Positions 8,226 to 19,683 are shown, numbered from the stretch's first letter. The stretch: DNA of 64,000 nucleotides from Deltaproteobacteria bacterium (GCA_016180855.1 JACPAL010000005.1:52905-116904), one strand, 5' to 3'. Notes: generated by a model not told the origin, from the letters alone. Program-made: numbers and translations.

Positions 8226-9368
8226 ATGGTAGAACGTCCGTTTTGGATAGGCCTTCTTCTGGAGGCCCTCAAGAAGCGCCCGATTGTTTGGCTGGCAGGG
8301 GTCCGGCGGTCGGGGAAAACCTCTCTCTGTCGCATGCTCTCCGGAGTTCGATACTTCGATTGTGAATTACCATCGGTGCGCCGAGAGGTTGAGAGCGAGA
8401 GTTTCTGGGAGGGGCAAAAGAAACAAACAGTCATTCTCGATGAAATCCATCGTCTCTCTCACCCCGCCGAAATTTTAAAAATTGCTGCCGATCATTATCC
8501 TTCGATCCATGTCATCGCGACTGGGTCCTCAACTCTGGCTGCTACAACCAAATTTCGCGACTCCCTGACCGGGCGAAAAACGCGTATCTGGCTGACTCCG
8601 GCAAACAGCCTCGATTCGCAAGTTTTTGGGATTGGGGACTTTAAAAAACGTCTCCTCCTCGGGGGGCTTCCTCCGTTTCTTCTCGCAGATCAGTGGGACG
8701 AATCGGCTTATCAGGAATGGCTGGATTCCTTTTGGTCCCGAGATATTCAGGAATTATTTCGATTGGGCAATCGGTCTTCTTTTCTCAAGTTTTTTGAACT
8801 CCTCATGGCGCAGAGTGGCGGTATTTTTGAGGCTCAGAAATTTGCCAGCCCTTGCGAAGTGAGTCGTCCTACGATTTCAAATTACCTTGCCGTCCTGGAA
8901 ACAACCCTGACGGCCCATGTGATTCGTCCTTATTCCAAACGTCTTGCGACCGAGATAGTAACGGCCCCAAAGGTCTTCGGTTTCGATACCGGTTTCGTCT
9001 CCTTTGCCAAGGGGTGGACAACCCTTCCTAACGACCATGCAGGTCTTCTCTTCGAACATTGGGTTCTGAATGAATTTCACTCTGTCTTGCAAGAAACTTC
9101 CCTCAATTACTGGCGGGATAAGGCGGGGCATGAAATTGATTTTGTCTGGAAGAGGCGTGGCAAACCACCGGTTGCGATTGAATGCAAGTGGCATCAAGAC
9201 CAGTTTGATGATTCTTCATTGAGAAGTTTTCGTCATCGCCACCCTGAAGGGGAGAATATTCTGATAACGGCGAATCAGCCGGGGAAGCGCTTGATCAAAA
9301 AAGGGCCACTCGAAATTATCCACTTAGGTCCCGAATCCGTACGCGATTGGATTCAGTCGAAGTACTAA
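8226..9368 (+). CDS. AAA+ ATPase of the DUF4143 family (ATP-binding protein), paralog 1
   Basis: Walker A (AGVRRSGKTSL) and Walker B (VILDEIH); C-terminal part typical of DUF4143/ArsR-like ATPases; paralogous to 28615-29829. Confidence 0.75.
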   Translation: MVERPFWIGLLLEALKKRPIVWLAGVRRSGKTSLCRMLSGVRYFDCELPSVRREVESESFWEGQKKQTVILDEIHRLSHPAEILKIAADHYPSIHVIATGSSTLAATTKFRDSLTGRKTRIWLTPANSLDSQVFGIGDFKKRLLLGGLPPFLLADQWDESAYQEWLDSFWSRDIQELFRLGNRSSFLKFFELLMAQSGGIFEAQKFASPCEVSRPTISNYLAVLETTLTAHVIRPYSKRLATEIVTAPKVFGFDTGFVSFAKGWTTLPNDHAGLLFEHWVLNEFHSVLQETSLNYWRDKAGHEIDFVWKRRGKPPVAIECKWHQDQFDDSSLRSFRHRHPEGENILITANQPGKRLIKKGPLEIIHLGPESVRDWIQSKY

Positions 9369-9404
9369 GCGTGCCTGATGGAACCGGCGTTGGTCCCCGG
9401 TTAT

Positions 9405-9423
9405 CCGATCGCGAGGAAGGTTT
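9405..9423. repeat. 19-bp direct repeat CCGATCGCGAGGAAGGTTT, copy 2
   Basis: Exact match to 8128-8146. Confidence 0.8.
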
Positions 9424-9459
9424 GACTTTGGAGGCCGGCTTTCCTAAAGGTATGCCTTC

Positions 9460-9873
9460 ATGAAATTAATTCTTACCCCGCTTGAAAAGGCGTTGAAGCA
9501 GCTTGAGAAAGGCCTTTGGTACCTTACCTCCAACGAAAGTCAAAAAGATAGTGAGTTGCGTGAGCAATTCCGGGCTGCGGTGATCCATGCGTTTGAATTT
9601 AGTTTTGAATTGTCCTGGAAACTGCTGAAGCGTTATCTCGAAAACTACAGTCTTGAAAAAGTGGATGGGTTCACGACAAAGCAGCTCTTCCGCGTTGGAT
9701 TTGAACAAGGTCTGATTCGCGATCCGAATGCCTGGTTTGATTATCTGGAGAAGCGGAACCCGACGACCCACACTTACGATGGTGCCGTGGCCGAACGTGT
9801 CTACGAGGGGGCGAAGGGATTCTTGCGGGATGCCCAGGATCTACTTCAAAAACTAAAATCAAAGACCGCGTGA
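9460..9873 (+). CDS. HepT-like toxin / nucleotidyltransferase substrate-binding protein (HI0074 family)
   Basis: About 137-aa all-helical protein with NTase_sub_bind-like blocks; overlaps the partner gene by 4 bp. Confidence 0.65.
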   Translation: MKLILTPLEKALKQLEKGLWYLTSNESQKDSELREQFRAAVIHAFEFSFELSWKLLKRYLENYSLEKVDGFTTKQLFRVGFEQGLIRDPNAWFDYLEKRNPTTHTYDGAVAERVYEGAKGFLRDAQDLLQKLKSKTA

Positions 9874-10190
9874 TCGACCTCCCCCCCCATCATCTTACAA
9901 CAGTCCGTCGGATCCTTGCCGATACGATCCCCGGGTATGAGGTTCGGGTCTTTGGTTCGCGAGTCACCGGCACCGCAAAACCCCACTCCGACCTTGATCT
10001 CGCCGTCGTTGCCGATCACCCGCTTGACCTCAAAACATTGAGTCGCCTCCGTGAGGCGTTTGAGGAGTCGGACCTGCCGATTCGGGTTGATCTGGTAGAA
10101 TGGAACTCGATCAGCGATGAATTTCGCAAGGTGATCGAGGAAAGTTACGAAATCATTTTGGAGGGGGAGAATTCATCCCCAGGACCGTAG
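9870..10190 (+). CDS. MntA-like minimal nucleotidyltransferase antitoxin (HI0073 family)
   Basis: Pol-beta-type NTase motif GSRVTGTAKPHSDLDLAV. Confidence 0.7.
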   Translation: MIDLPPHHLTTVRRILADTIPGYEVRVFGSRVTGTAKPHSDLDLAVVADHPLDLKTLSRLREAFEESDLPIRVDLVEWNSISDEFRKVIEESYEIILEGENSSPGP

Positions 10191-10192
10191 AT

Positions 10193-10217
10193 CTCTACAT
10201 CGTGGCCACCCCGATCG
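10193..10217 (+). other. 25-bp duplicated fragment of the rsmI 5' coding end (encodes LYIVATPI), immediately after the mntA stop
   Basis: CTCTACATCGTGGCCACCCCGATCG here versus CTCTACATCGTTGCCACTCCGATCG at 10495-10519 in rsmI (23/25 identical). Confidence 0.75.
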
Positions 10218-10264
10218 TAAGTTTTGCAGGACGCCACTTGCTTTTATCTGGAACTTTTCTGTTC

Positions 10265-10280
10265 TGGTGTGCTAGAATGG
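10265..10280 (+). promoter_or_regulatory. Possible sigma-70 extended -10 element (TGcTAGAAT) for the rsmI leader
   Basis: gtgtgcTAGAATgg about 200 nt upstream of the rsmI ATG; -35 is weak. Confidence 0.3.
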
Positions 10281-10312
10281 TTCTTGTGTCTATAAAACGT
10301 ATTTATCCGCCT

Positions 10313-10345
10313 CCGCCAGAAAACCCTGCCGTCTTGCGGCGGGGA
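10313..10345 (+). repeat. 33-bp hairpin repeat unit 1 (CCGCCAGAAAACCCTGCCGTCTTGCGGCGGGGA) in the rsmI leader
   Basis: Stem CCCUGCCG/CGGCGGGG with loop UCUUG; repeated at 10400-10432 with compensatory stem changes. Confidence 0.7.
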
Positions 10346-10399
10346 TGAATGGTCCGGGGATTCGAAGCATTGGCAGAGGAGGGTCGGGGCTACGGGGAT

Positions 10400-10432
10400 T
10401 CCGCCAAGAAACCCCGCGGTCTTGCCGCGGGG
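10400..10432 (+). repeat. 33-bp hairpin repeat unit 2 (CCGCCAAGAAACCCCGCGGTCTTGCCGCGGGGA)
   Basis: Perfect 8-bp stem CCCCGCGG/CCGCGGGG, same UCUUG loop. Confidence 0.7.
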
Positions 10433-10483
10433 AGCTTCATTTCAATAAGTTAAAAGTAGAATACTTGCGGAAATTTTTTTAAC

Positions 10484-11161
10484 ATGTCCGGCACCCTCTA
10501 CATCGTTGCCACTCCGATCGGGAATCTCGAGGACATCACACTTCGGGCACTACGGATTTTAAAAGAGGTCGATCTCATTGCCTGCGAAGATACGCGTCAC
10601 ACACGAAAATTGTTGACCCACTATGAGATCACAAAACCGCTCGTGAGTTACTTTGAACACAATAAGATCACTCGGGGAGAACATTTGATACGTCAGCTTA
10701 AGGAAGGGAAGTCGATCGCCCTCGTCTCGGACGCCGGGACACCGGGAATCTCCGATCCCGGGTACAATCTTATTCACTCCGTTCTGGAGGAGGGGATCGA
10801 GGTTGTTCCGATTCCTGGCCCCTCCGCGGCGATTGCGGCGTTGTCGGCCTCCGGACTTCCAACCGATCAATTTCATTTTGTCGGCTTTTTGCCTCTTAAA
10901 GAGGGGAAGAAGAGACGTCTGCTGGAGTCGCTTAAAGGGGAGGGGGCAACTCTTGTGGTGTATGAGTCCCCTTTTCGTGTCCGGAAAACCCTGCAGATCG
11001 CCCTTGAACTGTTTGGCAACATCCCGTCTGTTGCGGCACATGAATTAACGAAAATTCACGAGGGGTTCTTTCGTGGCCCACTAGCCGATCTTCTCCCAAA
11101 GATCGGAAGGGATGTCCCTGAAAAGGGGGAATGGATCCTTCTTTTTGGTCTTCAGCGGTAG
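10484..11161 (+). CDS. rsmI: 16S rRNA (cytidine1402-2'-O)-methyltransferase
   Basis: Tetrapyrrole-methylase-fold RsmI blocks (LYIVATPIGNLEDIT; ACEDTRHTRKLL; SDAGTPGISDPG). Confidence 0.85.
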   Translation: MSGTLYIVATPIGNLEDITLRALRILKEVDLIACEDTRHTRKLLTHYEITKPLVSYFEHNKITRGEHLIRQLKEGKSIALVSDAGTPGISDPGYNLIHSVLEEGIEVVPIPGPSAAIAALSASGLPTDQFHFVGFLPLKEGKKRRLLESLKGEGATLVVYESPFRVRKTLQIALELFGNIPSVAAHELTKIHEGFFRGPLADLLPKIGRDVPEKGEWILLFGLQR

Positions 11162-12609
11162 TCTCTCCAGAAATTCCAAAAATCGTTCCGGGCCGCCTCT
11201 TCATCATTCTCTTCTGAAGAGGCCGATTGACAGTCAGGGCAGAAACTGGCCTCCCCCTCCTCGCTATGGTTTCCACTACAGACCTCGGGTGGGTGGGGCA
11301 TGGGAGAGGGAGGCAAGGTGTATGGTGGGGGATACGAATCATCATCGGACTCAGGCAGTTCGGGCAAATCCGGGCAAAGAGCGGGATGGGATTCTGAATC
11401 GCTCTGGTAATAGGCCGCCTCGGCGGCCTCTTGGTCCAGACTGTTTCCATTTCGGCTGACGCTTACCTCTGAAATCGTTTCGGTCTCCAAGTGGCACAGG
11501 TAACTGATCTCCAATACCCATTGATCGTATGAATTGGAAAGACGGAAGGAACAGTGAACCTCATCGTAGCCCGACATAAACCTGCCGGCGCAGCAGGCAC
11601 AGGGGTCTTCTGAACCGTAGGGGCCATACGGATCTCTAAAGCAGACGACACAGGAACCGGTTCTGCTCGGATTGGGTGAAGGAGGAGGGGGTACCGGTGG
11701 CCGAGAGGAACACTCTTCACATAAGAGGAACTTCCCTGTCACCGGGTCATCATGGAATATATCGTATCCTCCCTCTTCCGTAAGGCAGCTGTAAAACTCG
11801 TGGCCGTGCTCTTCCTCAAAGGAACAGGTCATCATCGTTGCCTCACAGGAAACGACTTCCGTTGCGATATCCCGATGACAGACCTCGCCGGTTGCGGGGT
11901 CATACCAGACATCCGGATTCATGCGTGGATAGTCGACAAGAGGGTGATCAAAACAGTCCTCCTCGCAGGCACGTGTACAGGGACCGGTGGGGCATGGGAG
12001 AGAGGGATCTGTACAGACAGGGCAAATATACTCGTCTTCTCCCCCTTCGCAGATAGTATTACCGCAGGTTGGTACTGTCTCAAAACAGTCCTCCTCGCAG
12101 GCGAGTATACAGGGACCCATGGGGCATGGGAGAGAGGGATCTGCACAGACAGGGCAAATATACTCGTCCTCTCCCTCTTCGCAGAGCCCATTGCCGCAGA
12201 TTGTTAACGACGGTGTCGGTAGACAATTTGGATCGCTCCGATAAAGACCTGTATCGGGATCGAGTCTAAACATGACGATTATTTGATCTCCCCCCTCCAC
12301 TTTTTGGCAGGTATAGGTGTTTGTTAACACATCGAGGAGACAGGTCATGTCGGTTGTTTCGCAGTCGGTTGCCCCCGTCACTGAATCGTGGTGGCAGATC
12401 TGATTGGTTGTGGGATCGTACCACATTTCTGCATCAGGACAGGATGATAGTGAATCATTACCGGTCGGTTCTCCCTCGTCAAATCCAATAGAGACTGTCC
12501 CGCTGTTGTCGGGAATTTCATCTGTCTCTGTAGAGGTCGACTCCGGGGGGACTACGAGACAGGAGAGGTTCAAGATCAGGATCAGGGGAAGGAATAATTT
12601 CAATATCAC
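11152..12609 (-). CDS. Secreted cysteine-rich repeat protein (Myxococcus-type Cys-rich repeats), proline- and acid-rich C-terminus; GTG start
   Basis: N-terminal hydrophobic signal; repeated units ICGNGLCEEGEDEYICPVC(A/T)DPSLPCP(M/T)GPC and (M/V)WYDP(T/A)T(N/G)(Q/E)(I/V)CH(H/R)D; 132-bp tandem DNA repeat inside. Confidence 0.65.
   Translation of the reverse strand: MILKLFLPLILILNLSCLVVPPESTSTETDEIPDNSGTVSIGFDEGEPTGNDSLSSCPDAEMWYDPTTNQICHHDSVTGATDCETTDMTCLLDVLTNTYTCQKVEGGDQIIVMFRLDPDTGLYRSDPNCLPTPSLTICGNGLCEEGEDEYICPVCADPSLPCPMGPCILACEEDCFETVPTCGNTICEGGEDEYICPVCTDPSLPCPTGPCTRACEEDCFDHPLVDYPRMNPDVWYDPATGEVCHRDIATEVVSCEATMMTCSFEEEHGHEFYSCLTEEGGYDIFHDDPVTGKFLLCEECSSRPPVPPPPSPNPSRTGSCVVCFRDPYGPYGSEDPCACCAGRFMSGYDEVHCSFRLSNSYDQWVLEISYLCHLETETISEVSVSRNGNSLDQEAAEAAYYQSDSESHPALCPDLPELPESDDDSYPPPYTLPPSPMPHPPEVCSGNHSEEGEASFCPDCQSASSEENDEEAARNDFWNFWRDYR
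11953..12216. repeat. Two tandem copies of a 132-bp (44-codon) repeat inside the Cys-rich protein gene
   Basis: Units starting about 11953 and about 12085 are roughly 85-90% identical at the DNA level (acagtcctcctcgcaggc...gggcaaatatactcgtc...). Confidence 0.8.
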
Positions 12610-12621
12610 GGCGGTTATCCC

Positions 12622-12637
12622 TGCAAGCGGTATGCCG
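12622..12637 (-). promoter_or_regulatory. Candidate sigma-54 -24/-12 promoter (cGGCATaccgcTTGCA on the minus strand) ahead of the Cys-rich repeat gene
   Basis: GG/GC spacing is correct, but the leader would be only a few nt long (near-leaderless). Confidence 0.3.
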
Positions 12638-12742
12638 CACAGAAATTTAGGGAAATCGGTTTATTTTCGATAAAAACTGACCTCATAATAAGAAAACCCG
12701 GAAAAGAGATTCCATTCAATTTGGAATGAGGAACGTTTATTC

Positions 12743-13783
12743 TTACAGCCCCAGATCTCGCATCTTGTTGTAGAGGGTCCGCGAGGTAATCCCCAGCAAT
12801 TCAGCCGCCTTTCCATGATGCCCACCGGTCTTCTTCAAGGCATCGATAATCATCTGCCTTTCGGTCTCTTGTGCCTTTTTGCGGACGGCATCCGGCAGAC
12901 TGACCTCGCCCAGTATCGGTACATGAATCTCAGGATCGATTTTTTTGGGTCCGACTTGAGCCTTCTGAACCTCCACCGGGAGGTCATTCACCTCGATCTG
13001 GTTTTTGGCAACCACCATTGCCCGTTTAATGACATTGCGGAGTTCCCTCACATTTCCAGGGTAATGGTAGGCCTGAAGTTTCTGCATTGCCGTTGGAGAA
13101 ATTTCGACCACCTTATGCTGGATCGCATCCTGAAACTTCACGAGAAAGCGGTTTGAGAGCATCGGAATATCTTCTCTCCTCTCCCGAAGGGGGGGGATGG
13201 AGATCGGGAATTCATTCAAGCGGTAAAAAAGATCCATTCGGAATTTCTTCTCCTTGGCCAGCTCCTCCAGATCGGTATTCGTGGCGGCGATAATTCGGAT
13301 GTCAGTCCGGATCGACTTGCGCCCTCCGATCCGTTCAAACTCCCGCGATTCCAGAAAACGGAGGAGTTTGGCCTGAACCGACGTCGGGATGTTGGAGACC
13401 TCATCGAGAAAGAGTGTCCCTCCGTTGGCCGTCTCCAGTTTTCCCTGAAGTGTGGCATCTGCGCCTGTAAAGGAGCCCTTTTCATGTCCGAACAGTTCAC
13501 CTTCAATGAGCGTTTCCGGAATCGCGGCGCAGTCAATCGCAACGAAAGGCCCCTTGGAGCGCGTCGAGAGCTGGTGGATAACCCGGGCGGTTAACTCTTT
13601 TCCGGTCCCGGATTCCCCTGTCAGGAGGACGTTGACATCCGCCTTCGCAACCGAACGAACCAGGCCATGAAGGACCGCCTTTTGAACATTTTCAGATGAG
13701 AGCATGAACGCCTCGAGGTCCGACATCTCGGCCACCTCAAGCTTTAGCTCCTCAACCTCTTTTTGATAATCGGCATCGAGCAT
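12743..13783 (-). CDS. Sigma-54-dependent transcriptional activator (enhancer-binding protein) with no N-terminal sensory/receiver domain; AAA+ sigma-54 interaction domain plus Fis-type HTH
   Basis: Walker A GESGTGKE, GAFTGA-type loop (GHEKGSFTGA), C-terminal HTH (AAELLGITSRTLYNKMRDLGL); only about 50 aa precede the AAA+ domain. Confidence 0.85.
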   Translation of the reverse strand: MLDADYQKEVEELKLEVAEMSDLEAFMLSSENVQKAVLHGLVRSVAKADVNVLLTGESGTGKELTARVIHQLSTRSKGPFVAIDCAAIPETLIEGELFGHEKGSFTGADATLQGKLETANGGTLFLDEVSNIPTSVQAKLLRFLESREFERIGGRKSIRTDIRIIAATNTDLEELAKEKKFRMDLFYRLNEFPISIPPLRERREDIPMLSNRFLVKFQDAIQHKVVEISPTAMQKLQAYHYPGNVRELRNVIKRAMVVAKNQIEVNDLPVEVQKAQVGPKKIDPEIHVPILGEVSLPDAVRKKAQETERQMIIDALKKTGGHHGKAAELLGITSRTLYNKMRDLGL

Positions 13784-13877
13784 TTGGACGATCCCCCAAT
13801 TTCCGGAAAACTTTTACCACCTATTGTTTAAATATGGAAGGAGTTTTCCGAATTGGTTTTTTTAAGGTGGTGTTTAA

Positions 13878-13975
13878 GTACTTCGACTCGTAATTACCAT
13901 GACGTATCTGAAAAGCCAAAAAAATCAATCAAATTACTCGCTCAGCACTAGTCCTGAGTGAATAAATTCGTCACC
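13878..13975. repeat. 98-bp repeat element, copy A (inverted copy at 29940-30037)
   Basis: 97/98 identity to the reverse complement of 29940-30037; contains CTCAG-cactagtc-CTGAG hairpin. Confidence 0.9.
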
Positions 13976-14089
13976 TAAGATAATAGAGGGGGTCAAAAAA
14001 GCGACAGCTAAGGGGTTGATTTGCACCTGATTTTTGAACTTTCTGTTTTAAAACAAGTTTGTTATTAGCGGGTTAAGAAATTGGGTCTT

Positions 14090-14105
14090 TGGCACGTCGA
14101 TTGCT
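14090..14105 (+). promoter_or_regulatory. Sigma-54 promoter (TGGCAC-gtcga-TTGCT) upstream of the 14156 secreted-protein gene
   Basis: Consensus -24 GG / -12 GC elements with canonical spacing about 50 bp upstream of the ATG. Confidence 0.6.
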
Positions 14106-14155
14106 TCATTTGGGAAGTGGGGGTGGGGTTTTATGCTTAACGGGGAAGGGATGGT

Positions 14156-15424
14156 ATGAGAGGGTCATTTAAAAAACTTCTTAAACTGACCACGGTATTT
14201 GCTGTTGCCCTTCTTTTTGTCGGGGAGGGCGCCTGCCCGACCCCGGATGGTGGTGACACGACGGGGACGAGCACCGGTACGACAACCAGCAGTAGTGGGA
14301 CCGCTGCACCTTCTCGGGGTAGCTCCAGCAGCAGTTCAACCGATTCGATTGATGATATTGATGAATCTTCCGATGATGCGTCGGAGGAAGAGCAGCCTGG
14401 TGTTGTTCCTCCAACCGCCGGGCCGGTGGAGATACCTGGTCCGTCTGCCTTCCGCTTTCCAACGAGGGTAACAATCGATATCTCCTCGTTGACGGGGGAG
14501 GCCAACCGTTCACAATCTTTGGTGGTTCAAAACCGGTCTAAGAGTGTCTGTACCGGCGGTGTCTGTAGTCTCATCACGATGGGGACTGATCTCGTCGATC
14601 TTTTACAGGAGATTGGGGACAAGGTCTTTTCGTCCGACGGGATGTTTAGCTGTATTGCGGTTGAGAGCTCCGCCACACAAACCTCTTATGACGGCAAGGT
14701 TTGTTCAGCTGACGATACCTACGGAGGTTGGGATCTTCATATTGATTTTGGAACCTTCTCTTCTTCGCGCACCGAGACCTCCCAATGCTCCGGTAGCACC
14801 GTTTCTCTGCCGATCTGTTTCCGTGTCTGGATCCGATCGGATAGTTCCTCTTCATGGCAACGATTTATGGCAGGATTTTTGAACACGGCCCCCGGTGATA
14901 CAACGGGTGAAGGGGCGGGTGCCTTCTGGCTCCACCCGAGTGATTTCTTTCCCAGTGATTCATTGCCGGGCATCGACATGCAGTTTAAATGGAATCATGA
15001 GGACTTAACTGACAGGGGGACGGAGATTGCTTATGGCTACCATGTTGGACAATCGGATGGTGAGAAGGGGAGGGTCCTTGTGGCGGATGAAGAGCTCTCT
15101 TCACTCTGCTTCTCGAAACTCGTGAAGGTTCGGAAATACCGGGAGAGTTTCCTGTTTGGAGGGGCCTCTGACCTGAAGACAGTTGGATTGTGGGATGAGT
15201 GCCAGCCGTACTGGAGCGGTCAGCTCGTACACGACAACATCGGCGGACCGATCGATTGGCAGGACCGGAGTATCTGTGCCTACCGGCTGACCGGGGAGAG
15301 GATCAATTATGGTATTTGTACTAATGCGGGGATTAACTCAGCCTCCGAGAATTTTATTGATCTGCCGGAGACGGCGGAATTTACTTATCCCTCAACAACT
15401 GTTTTCCCTTTAAGTCCTCCGTAA
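14156..15424 (+). CDS. Secreted/lipoprotein-like hypothetical protein with a Ser/Thr/Gly-rich linker
   Basis: Signal peptide then Cys (VGEGAC), low-complexity TTGTSTGTTTSSSG...SSSSSS linker, about 300-aa C-terminal domain; no recognisable family. Confidence 0.6.
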   Translation: MRGSFKKLLKLTTVFAVALLFVGEGACPTPDGGDTTGTSTGTTTSSSGTAAPSRGSSSSSSTDSIDDIDESSDDASEEEQPGVVPPTAGPVEIPGPSAFRFPTRVTIDISSLTGEANRSQSLVVQNRSKSVCTGGVCSLITMGTDLVDLLQEIGDKVFSSDGMFSCIAVESSATQTSYDGKVCSADDTYGGWDLHIDFGTFSSSRTETSQCSGSTVSLPICFRVWIRSDSSSSWQRFMAGFLNTAPGDTTGEGAGAFWLHPSDFFPSDSLPGIDMQFKWNHEDLTDRGTEIAYGYHVGQSDGEKGRVLVADEELSSLCFSKLVKVRKYRESFLFGGASDLKTVGLWDECQPYWSGQLVHDNIGGPIDWQDRSICAYRLTGERINYGICTNAGINSASENFIDLPETAEFTYPSTTVFPLSPP

Positions 15425-18400
15425 GGAGTGCTCCTGTTCAAGCGAACGGAGATTCTGAGATCGCAGTGGATCCTCCAGATAGGCAACTCGATACTCCTCC
15501 GGCAGCAGGGAGGCGATCTCCTGATAAATCGTGCCCCCCCTTTTATCCGGAATTTGGGCGTACGCCTCCGCAGCGATCTCCATGAGGCCGTTTTGTTCAC
15601 AGGTTTTTGCGAGTTCACGCAATCTGTCGTTAAGCTTTTCCTCCGGTGGGAGTCCCCCCTTTTTTTGAAGGGTCAGATTTAGAAGCTGCATTCGAAGAGA
15701 GAGCTCCTGATCGAAACGATCGGAAAGCTTTGCAGCGCTTTGGTACTCCGCCGCCGATCTCTCCGACTGCCGCACCTCAAGGTAGATCTCCGCCAGTGCA
15801 TAGTGTCCCCAACCGTTCAAGAGGGGATCGGCTGTCTTTGTTGCCTGATCGACAACCTCTTCGAACTTCTCACGCGCCTTTTCATGGGATTGGATTGCCC
15901 GGTAGTAGTAGCCCCAGGCCAGTGTGATCCATGCGGTGAGTCCGGGGAAAGGGCCGGTTGAAGTCAGTGAATTAATCCTGCAGAGCATGTCATGTGCTGT
16001 TTGCGAGAGACCGAGGTTCAGATAGAGGAAGGCCCCCTTGAGATAATTTTGTATGATCTGATAAGGGGGGCTCACAAGATTCCGGTATCGGGTTGCCTCT
16101 TCAAGATATTGAATCGCCTCGTGGTACCGTCCTCGGCGTTGCGCGATCGTGATGAGGTTGTCGAGCATGATGAGGATATTATGGAGGTCACCAAGCTCCT
16201 TGGAGAGTGAAAGGGACTCCATAAAATAACGGTCGGCGTCTGTCACCTGTTGTCCCTGAAGCTCAATAAAGCCGAGCTGACTTAAGCTGACGGCGATCTG
16301 GTGCTTCTCTCCCAACTTTCGAAACAGCTCCAGTTTCTCTTTTTCAAACCGCCGTGCCTCATCAATCTGACCGGTGAGGGAGAGGGCGAGTCCCAGATTG
16401 TTGTTGATGAGGAGGCGGAATTTTTCCTTGTCGGGAGTGTTGGGGGAGGGGAGGGTTGTTTTAAAGAGGGTGATCGCCTTCTGGAACTCCCGGGTTTGAA
16501 CATAAACGTTGGCGAGCGCGTTCATCAGCTCACTATGGAGGGGGTCCTTGTCATCGCTCTCCTGAAGTGCCTCAACATAAAATTCTGCTGCCTCATGAAA
16601 TTTTCCGGACCGTGTCAGGACCCAGCCCATCAGCTTTCGTTCCTCCAGAGACAGTTTTTCACGGGGAGGAAAAAGGCGGAGTGCGTCGTTGGGCCGGCCT
16701 GCCAAGACAAGCAGGGGGATCAACTTTTTTTTAACCTCGAGAGTCCCCTTTTTGTCCTTGGTGAAAGACTGGAGATAATCCTTGTAGTTTTCAATCGCCC
16801 GCCGGGTCTGAAAAGTCGACTGATAGTAGGAACCGAGTTCCAGAAGATATCGCTTGGCCCACCGCTTTTCGCCCGATTCAAAGGCGTAGGCGACGAGATC
16901 TTCCAGCGACGGATCTTTCTCCTTCTGTGTGCTGTGCAGGATTCTCTTGCCCTTTTTTTGGCGGAGCAGTTTTTTTTGCCGTTGTTGCAAGAGACGCACG
17001 AGTGCCTCGTTTGGAATCTGGTAACGGGCCTCCATCTGACCGAAGGTTGACTGTCGGTTCAGCAAGCCCCGTTCCACAAGGGACGGAACAAAGATGGCTA
17101 GTTGTGTCATCGGGAGAGCCGAAGAGTCGGCCAGTTCTTCCAGCGTGATGCTTTTTCTCCAGAGGGCCGTTGTTTCAAGGATCGTCTGGGCTTCGGGAGC
17201 AAGCGTTTCGAGATTGTTTTGATAGAGATTTTCAATGGTATCAGGCAGCCTTCCTTCCCCTTTTCCCTCAAGGTAGTATCGGGCCCCTTCTGCAACGAGT
17301 AGCGGAATGCCGGAAGAGAAGGAGGAGAGCCATTCCTCAAATTCGGGCGGTACCTTTTTTCCTCCGAGGAGTTCAGTGAAGTAGAGGCCGATCTCCTCCG
17401 TTGAGAGTGGAGGGAGGGGGTGGATTTTTGCCTTTTGGAAAAGATTGGCGAATGCCCCGTGCGAGGGGAGTGTCCCTTGCCAACTGAGCATGAGACAGAC
17501 GGTCCCGATCTCTCTTTGAACCTGTGCCAGCCACTCGGCGAACAACGGGTCCGAGTCCTGCAGATCATCGGCAAACAGGATCAGCGGGGCCTTCTTGTGA
17601 ACGGTCTTGAGGGAGTGTTCAAAAAAATCGGCCGCTGTTTTGGAAGGAGGGAGCTCAAGCCCCTTGCGTAGTTGTGAGAAGGCATCCTTCTGGTTGAAGC
17701 GGTCAAGCCATAGACAGGGGATCTCCTTGAATTCTGCCTGATACTTGATCTCATGGAGCAGCCGGCTTTTGCCGATTCCCAATTCGCCCGTAAAAAGAAA
17801 CGCCTGACCCGCCGGGTTGTTCAACGCCTCCCTCGCCTCCTCCATCTCCTTTTGACGTCCCACGAGCCGCCCCTCTTCCGGCAGGGGGGAGGCACTGCTG
17901 GCCTCTCTCTCTCCGTAACGATTTTGCGTGTGGAGGTTGATCCAGTTGATTGCGCTGAAACCTTGCGAGACCCGTTCGCTTGGCTCTTTTTTGAGCAACA
18001 TCTCAAGGAGCTTCCGGAGATAAGCAGGAATTTTTGATTCCTCCTCCTCGTTCCAGGTGACTGTTTTTCTCAAGTGCCAGTTGAGTGCCTCGCCAGGGTC
18101 CTTTTCACTGAATGGAAAATGACGGGTGAGTGCCCGATAAAAAACGATTCCTAGCGAGTAAAGATCGACACGACGATCGGTATGGGGCGATTTCAAAAGA
18201 ATTTCAGGGGGTGAATAAAAAAGAGTACCGGCCAGCTGTTTTAACGGCTGGGTCTCAAGATGGGCAACGCCGAAATCGAGCAGTTTTACCTTTTTCTCTT
18301 CGTTGATGAGGATGTTAGGGCATTTGATATCAAAATGAATAATCCTGTGTTTGTGGAGATAGTCGAGGATCTCCAGTGTTTGGATGGCGAGTTCCTCTAT

Positions 18401-18730
18401 CTCCAAAACCGATTTGTTGGCAGTCCCCTTGAAAAAATCTTCTCCCCGAACAAAGTCGGAGAGGATGAGGTAACGTTTCAGTTTGTCGGAATAGACAAGG
18501 TCATGTGGCTTGCAGAGACCAGGGTGTTTGAGCTGGGTTAGCAGGAGGAATTCATTTTTAAAGGACGCAATCCGGCTCGGATTCGATGCGGCATAGAGAA
18601 TCTTGAATGCATATTCCCGGCCAGCCTCATCGAGGGCCAGGTAGACCTCCCCGAACCCCCCCTGTCCGATCTTTCGGATCAGTCGATAATCCTTCCCTGC
18701 GATATGAAGTTCTGTTGTTTCTTCTCCCAC
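15410..18730 (-). CDS. Ser/Thr protein kinase fused to an AAA/STAND-like ATPase and TPR repeats (1106 aa)
   Basis: Complete Hanks kinase motifs (GQGGFGEVY, AFKIL, HFDIKCPN, DFG, SPPE); P-loop FTGELGIGKSRLL; C-terminal half TPR-like; 15-bp convergent overlap with the 14156 gene. Confidence 0.8.
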   Translation of the reverse strand: MGEETTELHIAGKDYRLIRKIGQGGFGEVYLALDEAGREYAFKILYAASNPSRIASFKNEFLLLTQLKHPGLCKPHDLVYSDKLKRYLILSDFVRGEDFFKGTANKSVLEIEELAIQTLEILDYLHKHRIIHFDIKCPNILINEEKKVKLLDFGVAHLETQPLKQLAGTLFYSPPEILLKSPHTDRRVDLYSLGIVFYRALTRHFPFSEKDPGEALNWHLRKTVTWNEEEESKIPAYLRKLLEMLLKKEPSERVSQGFSAINWINLHTQNRYGEREASSASPLPEEGRLVGRQKEMEEAREALNNPAGQAFLFTGELGIGKSRLLHEIKYQAEFKEIPCLWLDRFNQKDAFSQLRKGLELPPSKTAADFFEHSLKTVHKKAPLILFADDLQDSDPLFAEWLAQVQREIGTVCLMLSWQGTLPSHGAFANLFQKAKIHPLPPLSTEEIGLYFTELLGGKKVPPEFEEWLSSFSSGIPLLVAEGARYYLEGKGEGRLPDTIENLYQNNLETLAPEAQTILETTALWRKSITLEELADSSALPMTQLAIFVPSLVERGLLNRQSTFGQMEARYQIPNEALVRLLQQRQKKLLRQKKGKRILHSTQKEKDPSLEDLVAYAFESGEKRWAKRYLLELGSYYQSTFQTRRAIENYKDYLQSFTKDKKGTLEVKKKLIPLLVLAGRPNDALRLFPPREKLSLEERKLMGWVLTRSGKFHEAAEFYVEALQESDDKDPLHSELMNALANVYVQTREFQKAITLFKTTLPSPNTPDKEKFRLLINNNLGLALSLTGQIDEARRFEKEKLELFRKLGEKHQIAVSLSQLGFIELQGQQVTDADRYFMESLSLSKELGDLHNILIMLDNLITIAQRRGRYHEAIQYLEEATRYRNLVSPPYQIIQNYLKGAFLYLNLGLSQTAHDMLCRINSLTSTGPFPGLTAWITLAWGYYYRAIQSHEKAREKFEEVVDQATKTADPLLNGWGHYALAEIYLEVRQSERSAAEYQSAAKLSDRFDQELSLRMQLLNLTLQKKGGLPPEEKLNDRLRELAKTCEQNGLMEIAAEAYAQIPDKRGGTIYQEIASLLPEEYRVAYLEDPLRSQNLRSLEQEHSLRRT

Positions 18731-18777: not shown

Positions 18778-19683
18778 TTAACTGTAAAATTCTTTAACCT
18801 TCTGTTCCATCTCATGAAGGTGCCGGCTGTCGACCACCTTCCCGCGTCGGAGGGCCAGACGGTTGTCACAGAATAGTTTGACGGCCTTTGCCAGGACATC
18901 CGCCTCGAGCTTTTTCCCTTTTACCGCAATCGACTCGAGCGATTCTTTGGATTTGTTGATCCGGAACGCCCCCTGCGTAATGATCGGCCCCTGATCCAGA
19001 TCGGTGGTGACAAAATGGGCGGTGACACCGACAACCTCTACCCCTTTATGGAATGCTTGGGAATAGGCACGGGCTCCCGGGAACGACGGGAGGAGTGACG
19101 GATGGATGTTGATAATTTTTCCCTCATAGCGAAAACAGAATTCCGGTGAGAGGATTTGCATGTACCGGGCCAGTACAATGAGGTCGATTTCATGGCGGGA
19201 GAGTTCCTTTAGAATTTTCTGCTCCTGTTCCTGCTTTTTCGCCGAAGGAAAATAATGGAAGGGGATTTTGTATTGATCCGCGGTTGGTTTGAGTTCTCGT
19301 CGGTTGGAAAGAATCAGACGGGCCTGTCCGTGAATCTTTCCCTCTCTCATCTTCTGTAAAATGGTTGTGAGGCAGTGGGGTTCCTTTGTAACCAGAAGGG
19401 CCACATTTTTGATCCGGCGCTCCTCCAGGACCTCCAGGGTGATCTCCATCCCGATCGAGCGCCCCACTTTTTTTAACCCTTCGCGGAAGAGCGGGAGGGG
19501 TCCTCTGAGACCTGATAGATCGACCTGCATGTTCATGACCAGAAAACCTTCAAGGATCCTCTGGTCGATATCTTCGATATTCAGATTGTTCTGGAAAAGA
19601 TGGGTCGTCACCGTGGCGATGATCCCCTTGCGATCCGGTCCTGCGACCCGTATCCGGGCCATTTTTTTACCCCCTGCCAGCAT
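18778..19683 (-). CDS. purU: Formyltetrahydrofolate deformylase
   Basis: N-terminal ACT domain plus formyltransferase domain blocks (HPSLLPSFPGARAY). Confidence 0.8.
   Translation of the reverse strand: MLAGGKKMARIRVAGPDRKGIIATVTTHLFQNNLNIEDIDQRILEGFLVMNMQVDLSGLRGPLPLFREGLKKVGRSIGMEITLEVLEERRIKNVALLVTKEPHCLTTILQKMREGKIHGQARLILSNRRELKPTADQYKIPFHYFPSAKKQEQEQKILKELSRHEIDLIVLARYMQILSPEFCFRYEGKIINIHPSLLPSFPGARAYSQAFHKGVEVVGVTAHFVTTDLDQGPIITQGAFRINKSKESLESIAVKGKKLEADVLAKAVKLFCDNRLALRRGKVVDSRHLHEMEQKVKEFYS

What the first reader, a model, noticed from the sequence alone, without database searches (positions are those of the whole stretch)
10218..10494. rsmI leader contains two tandem 33-bp hairpins with compensatory base changes
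Within the 277-bp segment between the rsmI fragment and the true rsmI ATG there is a TG-extended -10 element (TGcTAGAAT, about 10268-10278). Two 33-bp units follow, 87 bp apart at 10313-10345 and 10400-10432. Each folds into an 8-bp GC stem with the same UCUUG loop. The stems differ by paired substitutions, CUGCCG/CGGCGG in unit 1 versus CCGCGG/CCGCGG in unit 2, and unit 1 contains one G-U wobble. Covariation that preserves pairing points to selection on RNA structure, or on a dyad protein-binding site, not to simple duplication. This could be a structured regulatory leader for rsmI, a pair of REP-like elements, or the cargo of the small insertion that duplicated the rsmI 5' end.
Basis: seen in the sequence. 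Interest (0 to 1): 0.55.

Follow-up and report, generated by a model that had tools for sequence, protein, structure and literature searches.

The report
Two terminator-like hairpins upstream of rsmI
Two near-identical GC-rich hairpins do sit upstream of rsmI, but they look like ordinary terminator-type stem-loops in a strain-specific patch of DNA at an insertion hotspot, not a conserved regulatory RNA.

Summary
Two 34-nt units (10312-10345 and 10400-10433, 29/34 identical, 88 nt start to start) each form an 8-bp GC stem with loop TCTTG. A TGcTAGAAT element lies at 10270-10278, and a 25-nt copy of the rsmI 5' end lies at 10193-10217.

The "covariation" is one C-G to G-C swap and one G.U wobble between two sequences, which 240 of 500 shuffles match. 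No further copy turned up in the 64-kb window, in about 65 kb of related loci, or in three public collections. There is no Rfam match.

The four relatives whose nadE end was read (L012, L014/L015, L023; L023 is the closest, RsmI 76% identical) have no leader: the nadE stop overlaps or abuts the rsmI start. The 266-nt patch is therefore lineage-specific. It lies in a mosaic of inserted cassettes (an AAA ATPase gene and a mobile HepT-MNT toxin-antitoxin pair) bounded by remnants of the old nadE/rsmI junction.

On the minus strand each hairpin is followed by a U-tract, and the same hairpin cores in unrelated genomes lie where terminators lie. My best reading is a duplicated terminator-type stem-loop acting as a transcriptional insulator. 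Interest is low.

The parts
10312..10345 (+). Hairpin unit 1: TCCGCCAGAAAA + stem CCCTGCCG (10324-10331) / loop TCTTG / stem CGGCGGGG (10337-10344) + A. It has one G.U pair on the + strand, which is a C.A mismatch on the - strand. The - strand tail is TTTTCTGG.
10400..10433 (+). Hairpin unit 2: TCCGCCAAGAAA + stem CCCCGCGG (10412-10419) / loop TCTTG / stem CCGCGGGG (10425-10432) + A. All 8 pairs are G-C. The - strand tail is TTTCTTGG and the + strand tail is AGCTTCATTTC.
10346..10399 (.). 54-nt G-rich spacer between the units. It is unrelated to the sequence that follows unit 2 and holds a 9-nt repeat, CGGGGATTC, twice.
   Evidence: no viral or phage match
10270..10278 (+). TGcTAGAAT, an extended -10-like element with no good -35. 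It is a candidate promoter for rsmI. A second TAGAAT lies at 10457-10462.
   Evidence: sequence; one search found no full sigma-70 consensus
10218..10483 (.). Lineage-specific non-coding patch that separates the pseudo-5' end of rsmI from the real rsmI start. No homolog was found in any fetched locus or collection.
10175..10217 (+). Decayed rsmI 5' end (ATC CCC AGG ACC gtagat CTC TAC ATC GTG GCC ACC CCG ATC G), with a 25-nt core at 10193-10217. It overlaps the extended 3' end of the MNT gene.
   Evidence: alignment to the L014 junction, 0 of 500 shuffles as good
10484..11161 (+). rsmI (16S rRNA C1402 2'-O-methyltransferase, PF00590). It starts at ATG, has no evident Shine-Dalgarno sequence and an in-frame stop at 10457.
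9459..10158 (+). HepT-MNT toxin-antitoxin cassette (ORFs 9460-9873 and 9870-10190). About 90% nucleotide identity to copies in three other assemblies, at least one of them in a different genomic context.
9402..9425 (+). Remnant of the 3' end of nadE (TATCCGATCGCGAGGAAGGTTTGA). It continues to 9445 collinear with the sequence downstream of nadE in L019.
8128..8146 (+). Second copy of the nadE 3' remnant. It forms a perfect 19-nt direct repeat with 9405-9423, and the two copies flank the AAA_14/DUF4143 ATPase gene (8226-9368).

Best explanation
The two units are paralogous copies of a generic, terminator-type GC-clamp stem-loop. They lie in a lineage-specific non-coding patch (10218-10483).

**How the patch arose (inferred from comparison).** In four relatives the nadE stop overlaps or abuts the rsmI start, so the two genes are translationally coupled. 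I infer that this junction was broken in the window's lineage by accessory cassettes: an AAA ATPase gene and a mobile HepT-MNT pair. The patch now supplies rsmI with a new 5' end (ATG plus about 12 codons) and probably its promoter (TGcTAGAAT).

**How the hairpins most likely work (inferred, not shown).** They act as a transcriptional insulator at this new boundary. On the minus strand each is a GC hairpin followed by a U-tract (UUUUCU, UUUCUU). They are the first such signals met by antisense transcription that enters rsmI from the convergent, overlapping 485-aa gene. On the plus strand they are stable stem-loops, with no U-tract, between the toxin-antitoxin operon and rsmI, or inside the rsmI 5' leader if the distal promoter is used. 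They may also be an inactive relic of a lost cassette.

They are not a conserved riboregulator of rsmI.
For: **Terminator-like form**
- Hairpin plus U-tract is present on the minus strand for both units, and the T-rich side is the conserved flank of the unit.
- On a classical terminator discriminant, which I implemented from memory, unit 2 on the minus strand scores +12.6. It is the only positive score among the nine hairpin readings scored (both strands of the two units and five readings at four of the window's other hairpin sites). Unit 1 on the minus strand scores -11.7. The plus-strand readings score -33 and -25.
- The same hairpin cores in unrelated genomes lie where terminators lie. In L004 and L008 they are 24-26 nt past an opposite-strand stop codon and are followed by a T-run. 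In L007 the hairpin directly follows a same-strand TGA.

**No sign of a conserved or dispersed element**
- No other copy in the window or in related loci.
- No Rfam family.
- The whole leader is not more stable than shuffles on the + strand (z = -1.2) and only weakly so on the - strand (z = -1.85; 7 of 200 shuffles fold as well).

**Lineage-specific context**
- In relatives nadE runs straight into rsmI with no leader.
- The window carries nadE 3' remnants and a pseudo-5' end of rsmI at cassette borders.
- The HepT-MNT cassette is about 90% identical at nucleotide level to L019, where RsmI is only about 68% identical at amino-acid level.
- The convergent 485-aa gene overlaps the rsmI 3' end, and no strong hairpin lies between its stop codon and unit 2.
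Against: - No annotated minus-strand gene ends next to the hairpins. The nearest minus-strand stop (11152) is 720 nt away, across rsmI, and Rho could stop that transcript earlier.
- Unit 1 has a C.A mismatch on the minus strand but a legal G.U pair on the plus strand, and the one compensatory pair keeps the stem intact. This slightly favours a plus-strand RNA role, or at least some selection on the hairpin.
- The 6 nt beyond the U-tract (GGCGGA on the minus strand) are also conserved, which a terminator does not need.
- The sharp 34-nt limits of the similarity are more typical of a mobile or repeatedly selected unit than of a segmental duplication.
- There are no transcript data of any kind.
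Confidence: 0.4

Rival explanations
1. Structured 5' leader of rsmI. Transcription starts about 10285 from TGcTAGAAT. The roughly 200-nt leader carries both hairpins, which control mRNA stability, attenuation or translation of rsmI.
For: - An extended -10-like element lies upstream of both hairpins.
- Both stems pair fully only on the + strand, because the G.U pair in unit 1 is legal there, and there is one compensatory pair.
- rsmI here has lost its ancestral coupling to nadE and has no Shine-Dalgarno sequence, so some new expression signal is needed.
Against: - In L012, L014/L015 and L023 nadE runs straight into rsmI with no leader. In L019 rsmI overlaps the upstream PIN (VapC-like) gene.
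- No Rfam match.
- The leader fold has z = -1.2 and leaves the start codon unpaired, so no occlusion logic is visible.
- Neither hairpin has a + strand U-tract that would allow attenuation.
- Covariation is not distinguishable from chance.
Confidence: 0.2
2. Functionless relic. The hairpins are leftover terminators of a cassette gene that was later deleted. In L019 a minus-strand gene directly follows MNT in the same position.
For: - L019 has the layout MNT, then a convergent 581-aa gene, in the same slot.
- The patch has no homolog anywhere searched and no coding potential. The 45-aa and 48-aa ORFs have no family and no homologs.
- Unit 1 is already degraded on the minus strand.
Against: - Two copies with intact stems, one of them kept by a compensatory change, argue against free decay.
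- The flanks have diverged completely while the units remain 85% identical.
Confidence: 0.15
3. REP-like or miniature mobile palindromic element, inserted twice.
For: - The 34-nt boundaries of similarity are sharp and the flanks are unrelated.
- Short-read contigs of the same organism break exactly inside unit 2 in two samples, as repeats or strain variants would cause.
Against: - Only two copies in 64 kb, both in one intergenic patch.
- None in 65 kb of related loci.
- Genome, metagenome and viral scans returned only single, unrelated hairpins placed like terminators.
- The units are in direct rather than inverted orientation.
- No transposase-like family was found among the 20 ORFs scanned between positions 43 and 22942.
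Confidence: 0.08
4. Dyad-symmetric DNA operators (CCCCGCGG-N5-CCGCGGGG) for a dimeric regulator. The two sites, 88 bp apart, could loop or flank the rsmI promoter.
For: Unit 2 has perfect dyad symmetry, and the two sites are about 8.4 helical turns apart.
Against: - The nearby sigma-54 activator has its own evident target, a perfect TGGCACGTCGATTGCT at 14090, and no sigma-54 promoter lies near the hairpins.
- 8-bp all-GC arms are unlike typical operators.
- The T in unit 1 breaks the DNA dyad.
- No regulator gene is adjacent.
Confidence: 0.07
5. Small RNA gene on the + strand (promoter at 10270, terminator at unit 2, about 155 nt), or a degenerate CRISPR-like mini-array (two repeats and one spacer).
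For: - Promoter-like element followed by hairpins. The best Rfam near-hit, BSnc120 at E = 0.92, aligns the unit 2 hairpin and its tail.
- On the minus strand the unit has the hairpin-plus-handle layout of type I CRISPR repeats. This comparison is from memory.
Against: - Unit 2 is a poor + strand terminator (score -25).
- No Rfam match above threshold.
- The spacer is 54 nt, the repeats are only 85% identical, there are only two of them, no Cas-like family was found among the 20 ORFs scanned (positions 43-22942), and the spacer matches nothing viral.
Confidence: 0.05

Closest known systems
Intrinsic (Rho-independent) transcription terminators, including tandem and bidirectional ones
   Same: A short all-GC stem (8 bp) with a small loop and a U-tract immediately 3' on the minus strand. 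The same hairpin cores lie just past stop codons, followed by T-runs, in unrelated genomes. Unit 2 on the minus strand passes a classical discriminant.
   Different: No gene ends next to them on the strand that carries the U-tracts. Unit 1 has a mismatch on that strand. The plus strand has no U-tract. The two copies share 12 nt of flank, more than a terminator needs.
REP/BIME palindromic elements of Enterobacteria and Pseudomonas
   Same: Imperfect GC-rich palindromes of 30-40 nt in intergenic DNA with sharp boundaries. They stabilise or punctuate transcripts.
   Different: REPs occur in tens to hundreds of copies, often as inverted pairs. Here there are two direct copies at a single locus, and none elsewhere in 64 kb or in the public scans.
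Accretion of integrative elements or cassettes at a conserved attachment site, as at tRNA or gene-end att sites (CIME-like remnants)
   Same: The surroundings show repeated copies of the ancestral nadE 3' / rsmI 5' junction at the borders of accessory gene blocks. The same slot is filled differently in related genomes.
   Different: No integrase or recombinase is in view. The repeat lengths are 19-38 nt and 25 nt. The 266-nt block that holds the hairpins is non-coding. The mechanism was not identified.
Cis-regulatory mRNA leaders (riboswitches, attenuators, ribosomal-protein leaders)
   Same: Position between a promoter-like element and a gene for a ribosome-modifying enzyme, with stable hairpins.
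   Different: Not conserved among orthologs, no Rfam family, no alternative-pairing logic and no terminator U-tract on the mRNA strand.

Membership tests
Intrinsic terminator | GC-rich stem-loop of about 5-12 bp with a short loop | tested here: met
   8 bp with 7-8 G-C pairs and a 5-nt loop; -15.8 and -18.0 kcal/mol for the bare hairpins.
Intrinsic terminator | U-tract directly 3' of the stem on the transcribed strand | tested here: inconclusive
   Met on the minus strand (TTTTCTGG, TTTCTTGG). Not met on the plus strand (ATGAATGG, AGCTTCAT). Discriminant scores are +12.6 and -11.7 on the minus strand, and -25 and -33 on the plus strand.
Intrinsic terminator | Lies at the 3' end of a transcription unit | tested here: inconclusive
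   On the minus strand the nearest stop is at 11152, 720 nt away across rsmI. On the plus strand the MNT stop at 10190 is 120-240 nt upstream, but there is no U-tract on that strand. There are no transcript data.
REP/BIME-like dispersed palindromes | Many dispersed copies in the genome | tested here: not met
   2 copies in 64 kb, both at one locus. None in related loci. No family found in the genome, metagenome or viral scans. The rest of this MAG could not be searched.
REP/BIME-like dispersed palindromes | Associated RAYT (TnpA-REP) transposase, inverted pairing of copies | tested here: not met
   The copies are direct repeats. No transposase-like Pfam family was found among the 20 ORFs scanned between positions 43 and 22942. 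The whole genome was not tested.
Conserved cis-regulatory leader RNA | Present upstream of orthologous genes in related genomes | tested here: not met
   In L012, L014/L015 and L023 the nadE stop overlaps or abuts the rsmI start (sequence read). L013 and L011 show an overlapping upstream gene in the gene calls only. In L019 rsmI overlaps vapC.
Conserved cis-regulatory leader RNA | Statistically supported covariation | tested here: not met
   Two sequences, 1 pair changed on both sides and 1 on one side; 240 of 500 shuffles are as good. R-scape cannot be applied to two sequences.
Conserved cis-regulatory leader RNA | Match to a described RNA family | tested here: not met
   No Rfam hit at the gathering threshold in the window. 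The best sub-threshold hit was E = 0.92.
CRISPR array | Repeats near-identical, spacers of about 30-40 nt, cas genes or a longer array nearby | tested here: not met
   Two repeats at 85% identity with a 54-nt spacer. No Cas family among the 20 ORFs scanned (positions 43-22942). The spacer has no viral match.
Integron attC site | R''/R' core sites (RYYYAAC ... GTTRRRY) and presence at every cassette border | tested here: not met
   No such cores flank the stems (sequence). The other cassette borders in the window and in L019 have no strong hairpin.

The most novel reading that the evidence does not exclude
After insertions destroyed the ancestral nadE-rsmI translational coupling, this lineage may have recruited a new, duplicated stem-loop module as a de novo leader or small RNA that controls rsmI. 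It could, for example, be bound by a protein, or by RsmI itself through the CCGCC motif shared with 16S rRNA around C1402. Alternatively, the 34-nt unit could be the recombination site of an unrecognised cassette-capture system that operates at the nadE/rsmI junction.
Probability: 0.06. Interest if true: 0.6.

Novelty: new member of a known kind. Interest (0 to 1): 0.2.

Why it matters
The main value is as a caution. One compensatory pair between two paralogous hairpins is not covariation, and terminator-type GC hairpins recur by convergence in unrelated genomes.

The context is mildly useful. It shows how a housekeeping gene, rsmI, keeps working after its operon junction becomes an insertion hotspot: it gains a replacement 5' end and a stand-alone upstream region. 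It also shows that HepT-MNT modules, and probably AAA_14/DUF4143 ATPase genes, move as small cassettes in these uncultured groundwater bacteria.

Tried and rejected
- **Dispersed repeat family.** A pattern search with 3 mismatches, and a covariance model run with filters off, found nothing further in the window or the related loci. One scan each of genome, metagenome and viral contigs found nothing related.
- **Known RNA family.** Rfam at gathering and at permissive thresholds gave nothing. ARAGORN found no tRNA or tmRNA.
- **Binding sites for the sigma-54 activator.** Rejected. Its target promoter is at 14090, and no sigma-54 promoter lies near the hairpins.
- **CRISPR mini-array.** Rejected on spacer length, repeat identity, lack of Cas families among the scanned ORFs and lack of protospacers.
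- **attC-like sites.** Rejected. There are no core sites, and the other cassette borders lack hairpins.
- **Leader peptide.** The 45-aa ORF (10345-10482) has no Pfam family and no real homolog among 1.8 billion representatives.
- **Terminators of an ortholog of the L019 minus-strand gene.** The window's 485-aa gene is not its ortholog.
- **Descent of the patch or unit flank from the nadE/rsmI junction.** Not significant, p about 0.35.
- **Strain variants of the hairpins.** I looked up exact-match contigs for HepT, MNT, the 45-aa ORF and the 485-aa protein. All were either not on record or gave the same contig.
- **Plasmid and phage similarity of the patch.** None.
- **Literature on an rsmI leader.** None found.

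Full report
**1. Observation**

Two units share 29 of 34 positions: TCCGCCAGAAAACCCTGCCGTCTTGCGGCGGGGA (10312-10345) and TCCGCCAAGAAACCCCGCGGTCTTGCCGCGGGGA (10400-10433). They start 88 nt apart. The flanks and the 54-nt spacer are unrelated.

The motif occurs twice in the window and never in 100 shuffles. Each unit forms an 8-bp stem with loop UCUUG, at -16.9 and -19.8 kcal/mol and z-scores of about -2.5 and -2.7. A scan of all 64 kb for stems of at least 7 bp with at least 6 G-C pairs found only about ten sites, and these two have the most G-C pairs among stems of their length.

TGcTAGAAT is at 10270-10278. A 25-nt copy of the rsmI 5' end at 10193-10217 matches 10496-10520 at 23/25, and both differences are synonymous.

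**2. The covariation claim**

The stems differ at two pairs: U.G versus C-G, and C-G versus G-C. That is one change on both sides between two sequences. In the pair count, 240 of 500 shuffles reach the observed values. My own rough estimate is that two of the five differences would hit one pair and keep it paired with probability about 0.05. Quasi-palindromes can also acquire such changes in a single templated event, which is established knowledge.

The G.U pair is legal only on the + strand; it is C.A on the - strand. This carries at most one bit of information about orientation.

**3. Searches for a family**

- A covariance model of the unit (R1), run with filters off, found nothing else in the window. 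The next best hit scored 11.9 bits at E = 0.35. It also found nothing in about 65 kb of loci from the same and related organisms, apart from the truncated unit 2 at the end of L001.
- The core AAACCCNGCNGTCTTGCNGCGGGG gave 2 hits in 185,579 species genomes, 5 in JGI metagenomes and 0 in viral contigs. All are single copies in unrelated contexts.
- Rfam gave nothing at gathering thresholds for the whole window. The best sub-threshold hit was E = 0.92, which aligns the unit 2 hairpin and its tail. There is no tRNA or tmRNA.

**4. What the unrelated hits show**

In L004 and in L008 (the same sequence as L005, L006 and L010), the hairpin lies 24-26 nt beyond the stop codon of a gene on the strand opposite to the pattern. 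It is followed on that strand by a T-run. In L007 the same hairpin follows a TGA directly on the pattern strand, with tail TTGTTCATTT.

So this GC-clamp hairpin sits, in either orientation, where a terminator would sit, and it arises by convergence.

In the window both units have U-tracts on the minus strand (UUUUCUGG, UUUCUUGG). That T-rich side is the conserved flank of the unit. The plus-strand tails are AUGAAUGG and AGCUUCAU.

I applied a classical discriminant that combines hairpin energy per nucleotide with a weighted T count. This is my implementation from memory of d'Aubenton-Carafa 1990, so the figures are approximate. Scores were:

| Reading | Score |
|---|---|
| Unit 2, minus strand | +12.6 |
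| Unit 1, minus strand | -11.7 |
| Unit 2, plus strand | -25 |
| Unit 1, plus strand | -33 |

Unit 2 on the minus strand is the only positive score among the nine hairpin readings scored: both strands of the two units, and five readings at four of the window's other hairpin sites.

**5. Context: the decisive comparative result**

The window comes from an uncultured groundwater "Deltaproteobacteria bacterium" MAG.

*Ancestral state.* In L012, L014/L015 and L023 (L023 is the closest relative, with RsmI 76% identical), rsmI has no upstream intergenic region. The nadE (NAD synthase) stop overlaps or abuts the rsmI start, as in ...TCCGATTGCGAGGAAGGTTTGA ATG CCC GGC ACC CTT TAT ATC.... L013 and L011 show the same overlap in the gene calls only.

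*State in the window.* The window lacks nadE altogether. Upstream of rsmI it has, in order:
- AnmK (anhydro-N-acetylmuramic acid kinase gene)
- a nadE 3' remnant at 8128-8146
- the AAA_14/DUF4143 ATPase gene
- a nadE 3' remnant at 9402-9425, followed by 20 nt collinear with L019
- HepT-MNT
- the decayed rsmI start at about 10175-10217
- the 266-nt patch
- rsmI

.

*State in L019.* This related MAG fills the same slot differently. It has nadE, HepT-MNT, a convergent 581-aa gene, VapBC and then rsmI, with two more nadE 3' remnants at the cassette borders.

*Mobility of HepT-MNT.* The HepT-MNT block (9459-10158) is about 90% identical at nucleotide level in L019, L020 and L021, although RsmI in L019 is only about 68% identical at amino-acid level. 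In L021 the block sits next to pyrG. It therefore moves as a cassette.

*Edge of homology.* Homology stops at 10158, inside the 3' end of MNT. The MNT protein is consequently 9 residues longer than in relatives.

Nothing homologous to 10159-10483 exists in any fetched locus, in plasmids or in phages. The patch is not detectably derived from the junction itself. The hairpins therefore lie in a lineage-specific patch at an insertion hotspot. That patch gave rsmI a replacement 5' end and a stand-alone upstream region.

*Assembly breaks.* Assemblies of the same organism break at these borders. L016 breaks just after the nadE remnant that follows AnmK and then diverges from the window. L017 breaks at 9431. 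L001 and L002 begin at 10414, inside unit 2. This suggests strain heterogeneity, which I could not resolve.

**6. Mechanism**

*Shown.* The two hairpins are real and paralogous. They have terminator-type sequence features on the minus strand. The leader is not conserved among relatives. No dispersed family was found.

*Inferred.* They act as an insulator at the new boundary. The convergent 485-aa gene overlaps the rsmI 3' end by 10 nt, and no strong hairpin lies between its stop codon and unit 2. Antisense transcription through rsmI would therefore meet unit 2 and then unit 1 first. On the plus strand they are stable stem-loops between the toxin-antitoxin operon and rsmI, or within a roughly 200-nt rsmI leader if TGcTAGAAT is the promoter.

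*No sign of a regulatory switch.* The whole-leader fold is not unusual on the + strand (z = -1.2) and only weakly so on the - strand (z = -1.85; 7 of 200 shuffles fold as well). It leaves the start codon unpaired.

I put 0.4 on the terminator/insulator reading, 0.2 on a plus-strand leader role, 0.15 on a functionless relic, and the rest on the minor rivals.

**7. Rejected alternatives**

- *Sigma-54 activator sites.* The activator's own perfect promoter is at 14090-14105, and none lies near the hairpins.
- *CRISPR mini-array.* The spacer is 54 nt, the repeats are 85% identical, no Cas family was found among the scanned ORFs, and there is no protospacer.
- *attC.* There are no core sites, and the other cassette borders lack hairpins.
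- *Leader peptide.* The 45-aa ORF ends 1 nt before the rsmI ATG but has no family and no real homolog.
- *16S rRNA mimicry around C1402.* Only the pentamer CCGCC is shared. This comparison is from memory and was not tested.

**8. Verdict**

This is a real but ordinary feature: a new instance of a known kind, the terminator-type stem-loop, duplicated. It lies in a strain-specific junction patch. Interest is 0.2.

The surrounding insertion hotspot at the nadE/rsmI junction is the more informative finding, although it too follows a familiar pattern.

Noticed in passing
window 8128-8146 and 9405-9423; L019 5472-5511, 6380-6398, 8735-8773: The last 19-38 nt of nadE (..GGCGCTATCCGATCGCGAGGAAGGTTTGA) recur at the borders of every accessory block inserted between nadE and rsmI. 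In the window a perfect 19-nt direct repeat flanks the AAA_14/DUF4143 ATPase gene. This looks like repeated site-specific or junction-duplicating insertion at one hotspot, but no recombinase is in view.
   Followed up: partly
window 9459-10158; L019 5590-6289; L021 5592-6288; L020 1-655: The HepT-MNT toxin-antitoxin pair is about 90% identical at nucleotide level in three other assemblies. RsmI in L019 is only about 68% identical at amino-acid level. In L021 the pair sits next to pyrG, so it is a horizontally mobile cassette.
   Followed up: partly
window 10159-10190: The MNT gene loses homology to its relatives 32 nt before its stop. It ends in a 9-residue extension (..LEGENSSPGP) that reads into the decayed rsmI start, so the junction altered the antitoxin's C-terminus.
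   Followed up: partly
window 11152-18730: In L012, L013 and L014 rsmI is followed directly by a convergent, overlapping purU gene. In L011 an ATPase gene lies between them, and in L019 a + strand gene follows rsmI. The window has about 7.6 kb inserted before purU (18778-19683): a 485-aa Cys-rich protein, a sigma-54 activator, a 422-aa gene and a Ser/Thr kinase-TPR protein. Both sides of rsmI therefore vary.
   Followed up: partly
window 14090-14105: A perfect sigma-54 promoter consensus (TGGCACGTCGATTGCT) lies upstream of the 422-aa gene (14156-15424), which is divergent from the activator gene at 12743-13783. A weaker match (CGGCATACCGCTTGCA) lies at 12622-12637 on the minus strand, upstream of the 485-aa gene.
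   Followed up: no
window about 8147, 9431 and 10414 (L016 end, L017 end, L001/L002 start): Independent assemblies of the same organism break at the cassette borders and inside hairpin unit 2. L016 continues with a different sequence (AGATTTCGAATGAAGGAT) after the nadE remnant. This suggests coexisting strains with different fillings of the hotspot.
   Followed up: partly
window 10345-10482: A 45-codon ORF starts at the ATG at the 3' edge of hairpin 1, contains hairpin 2, and stops (TAA) 1 nt before the rsmI ATG. It has no homologs and no family, so it is probably spurious, but the stop-start spacing would allow re-initiation.
   Followed up: yes
L011 1373-2509: In another relative an AAA_14/DUF4143 ATPase gene, split into two ORFs, is inserted between rsmI and purU. 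Together with the window's copy, this suggests that these ATPase genes behave as small mobile cassettes.
   Followed up: no
window 10382-10392: GGTCGGGGCTA in the spacer matches GGTCGGCGCTA of the nadE 3' end (L019) at 10/11, just upstream of the TCCGCC that opens unit 2. It was not significant in a shuffle test (p about 0.35), so it is probably chance.
   Followed up: yes
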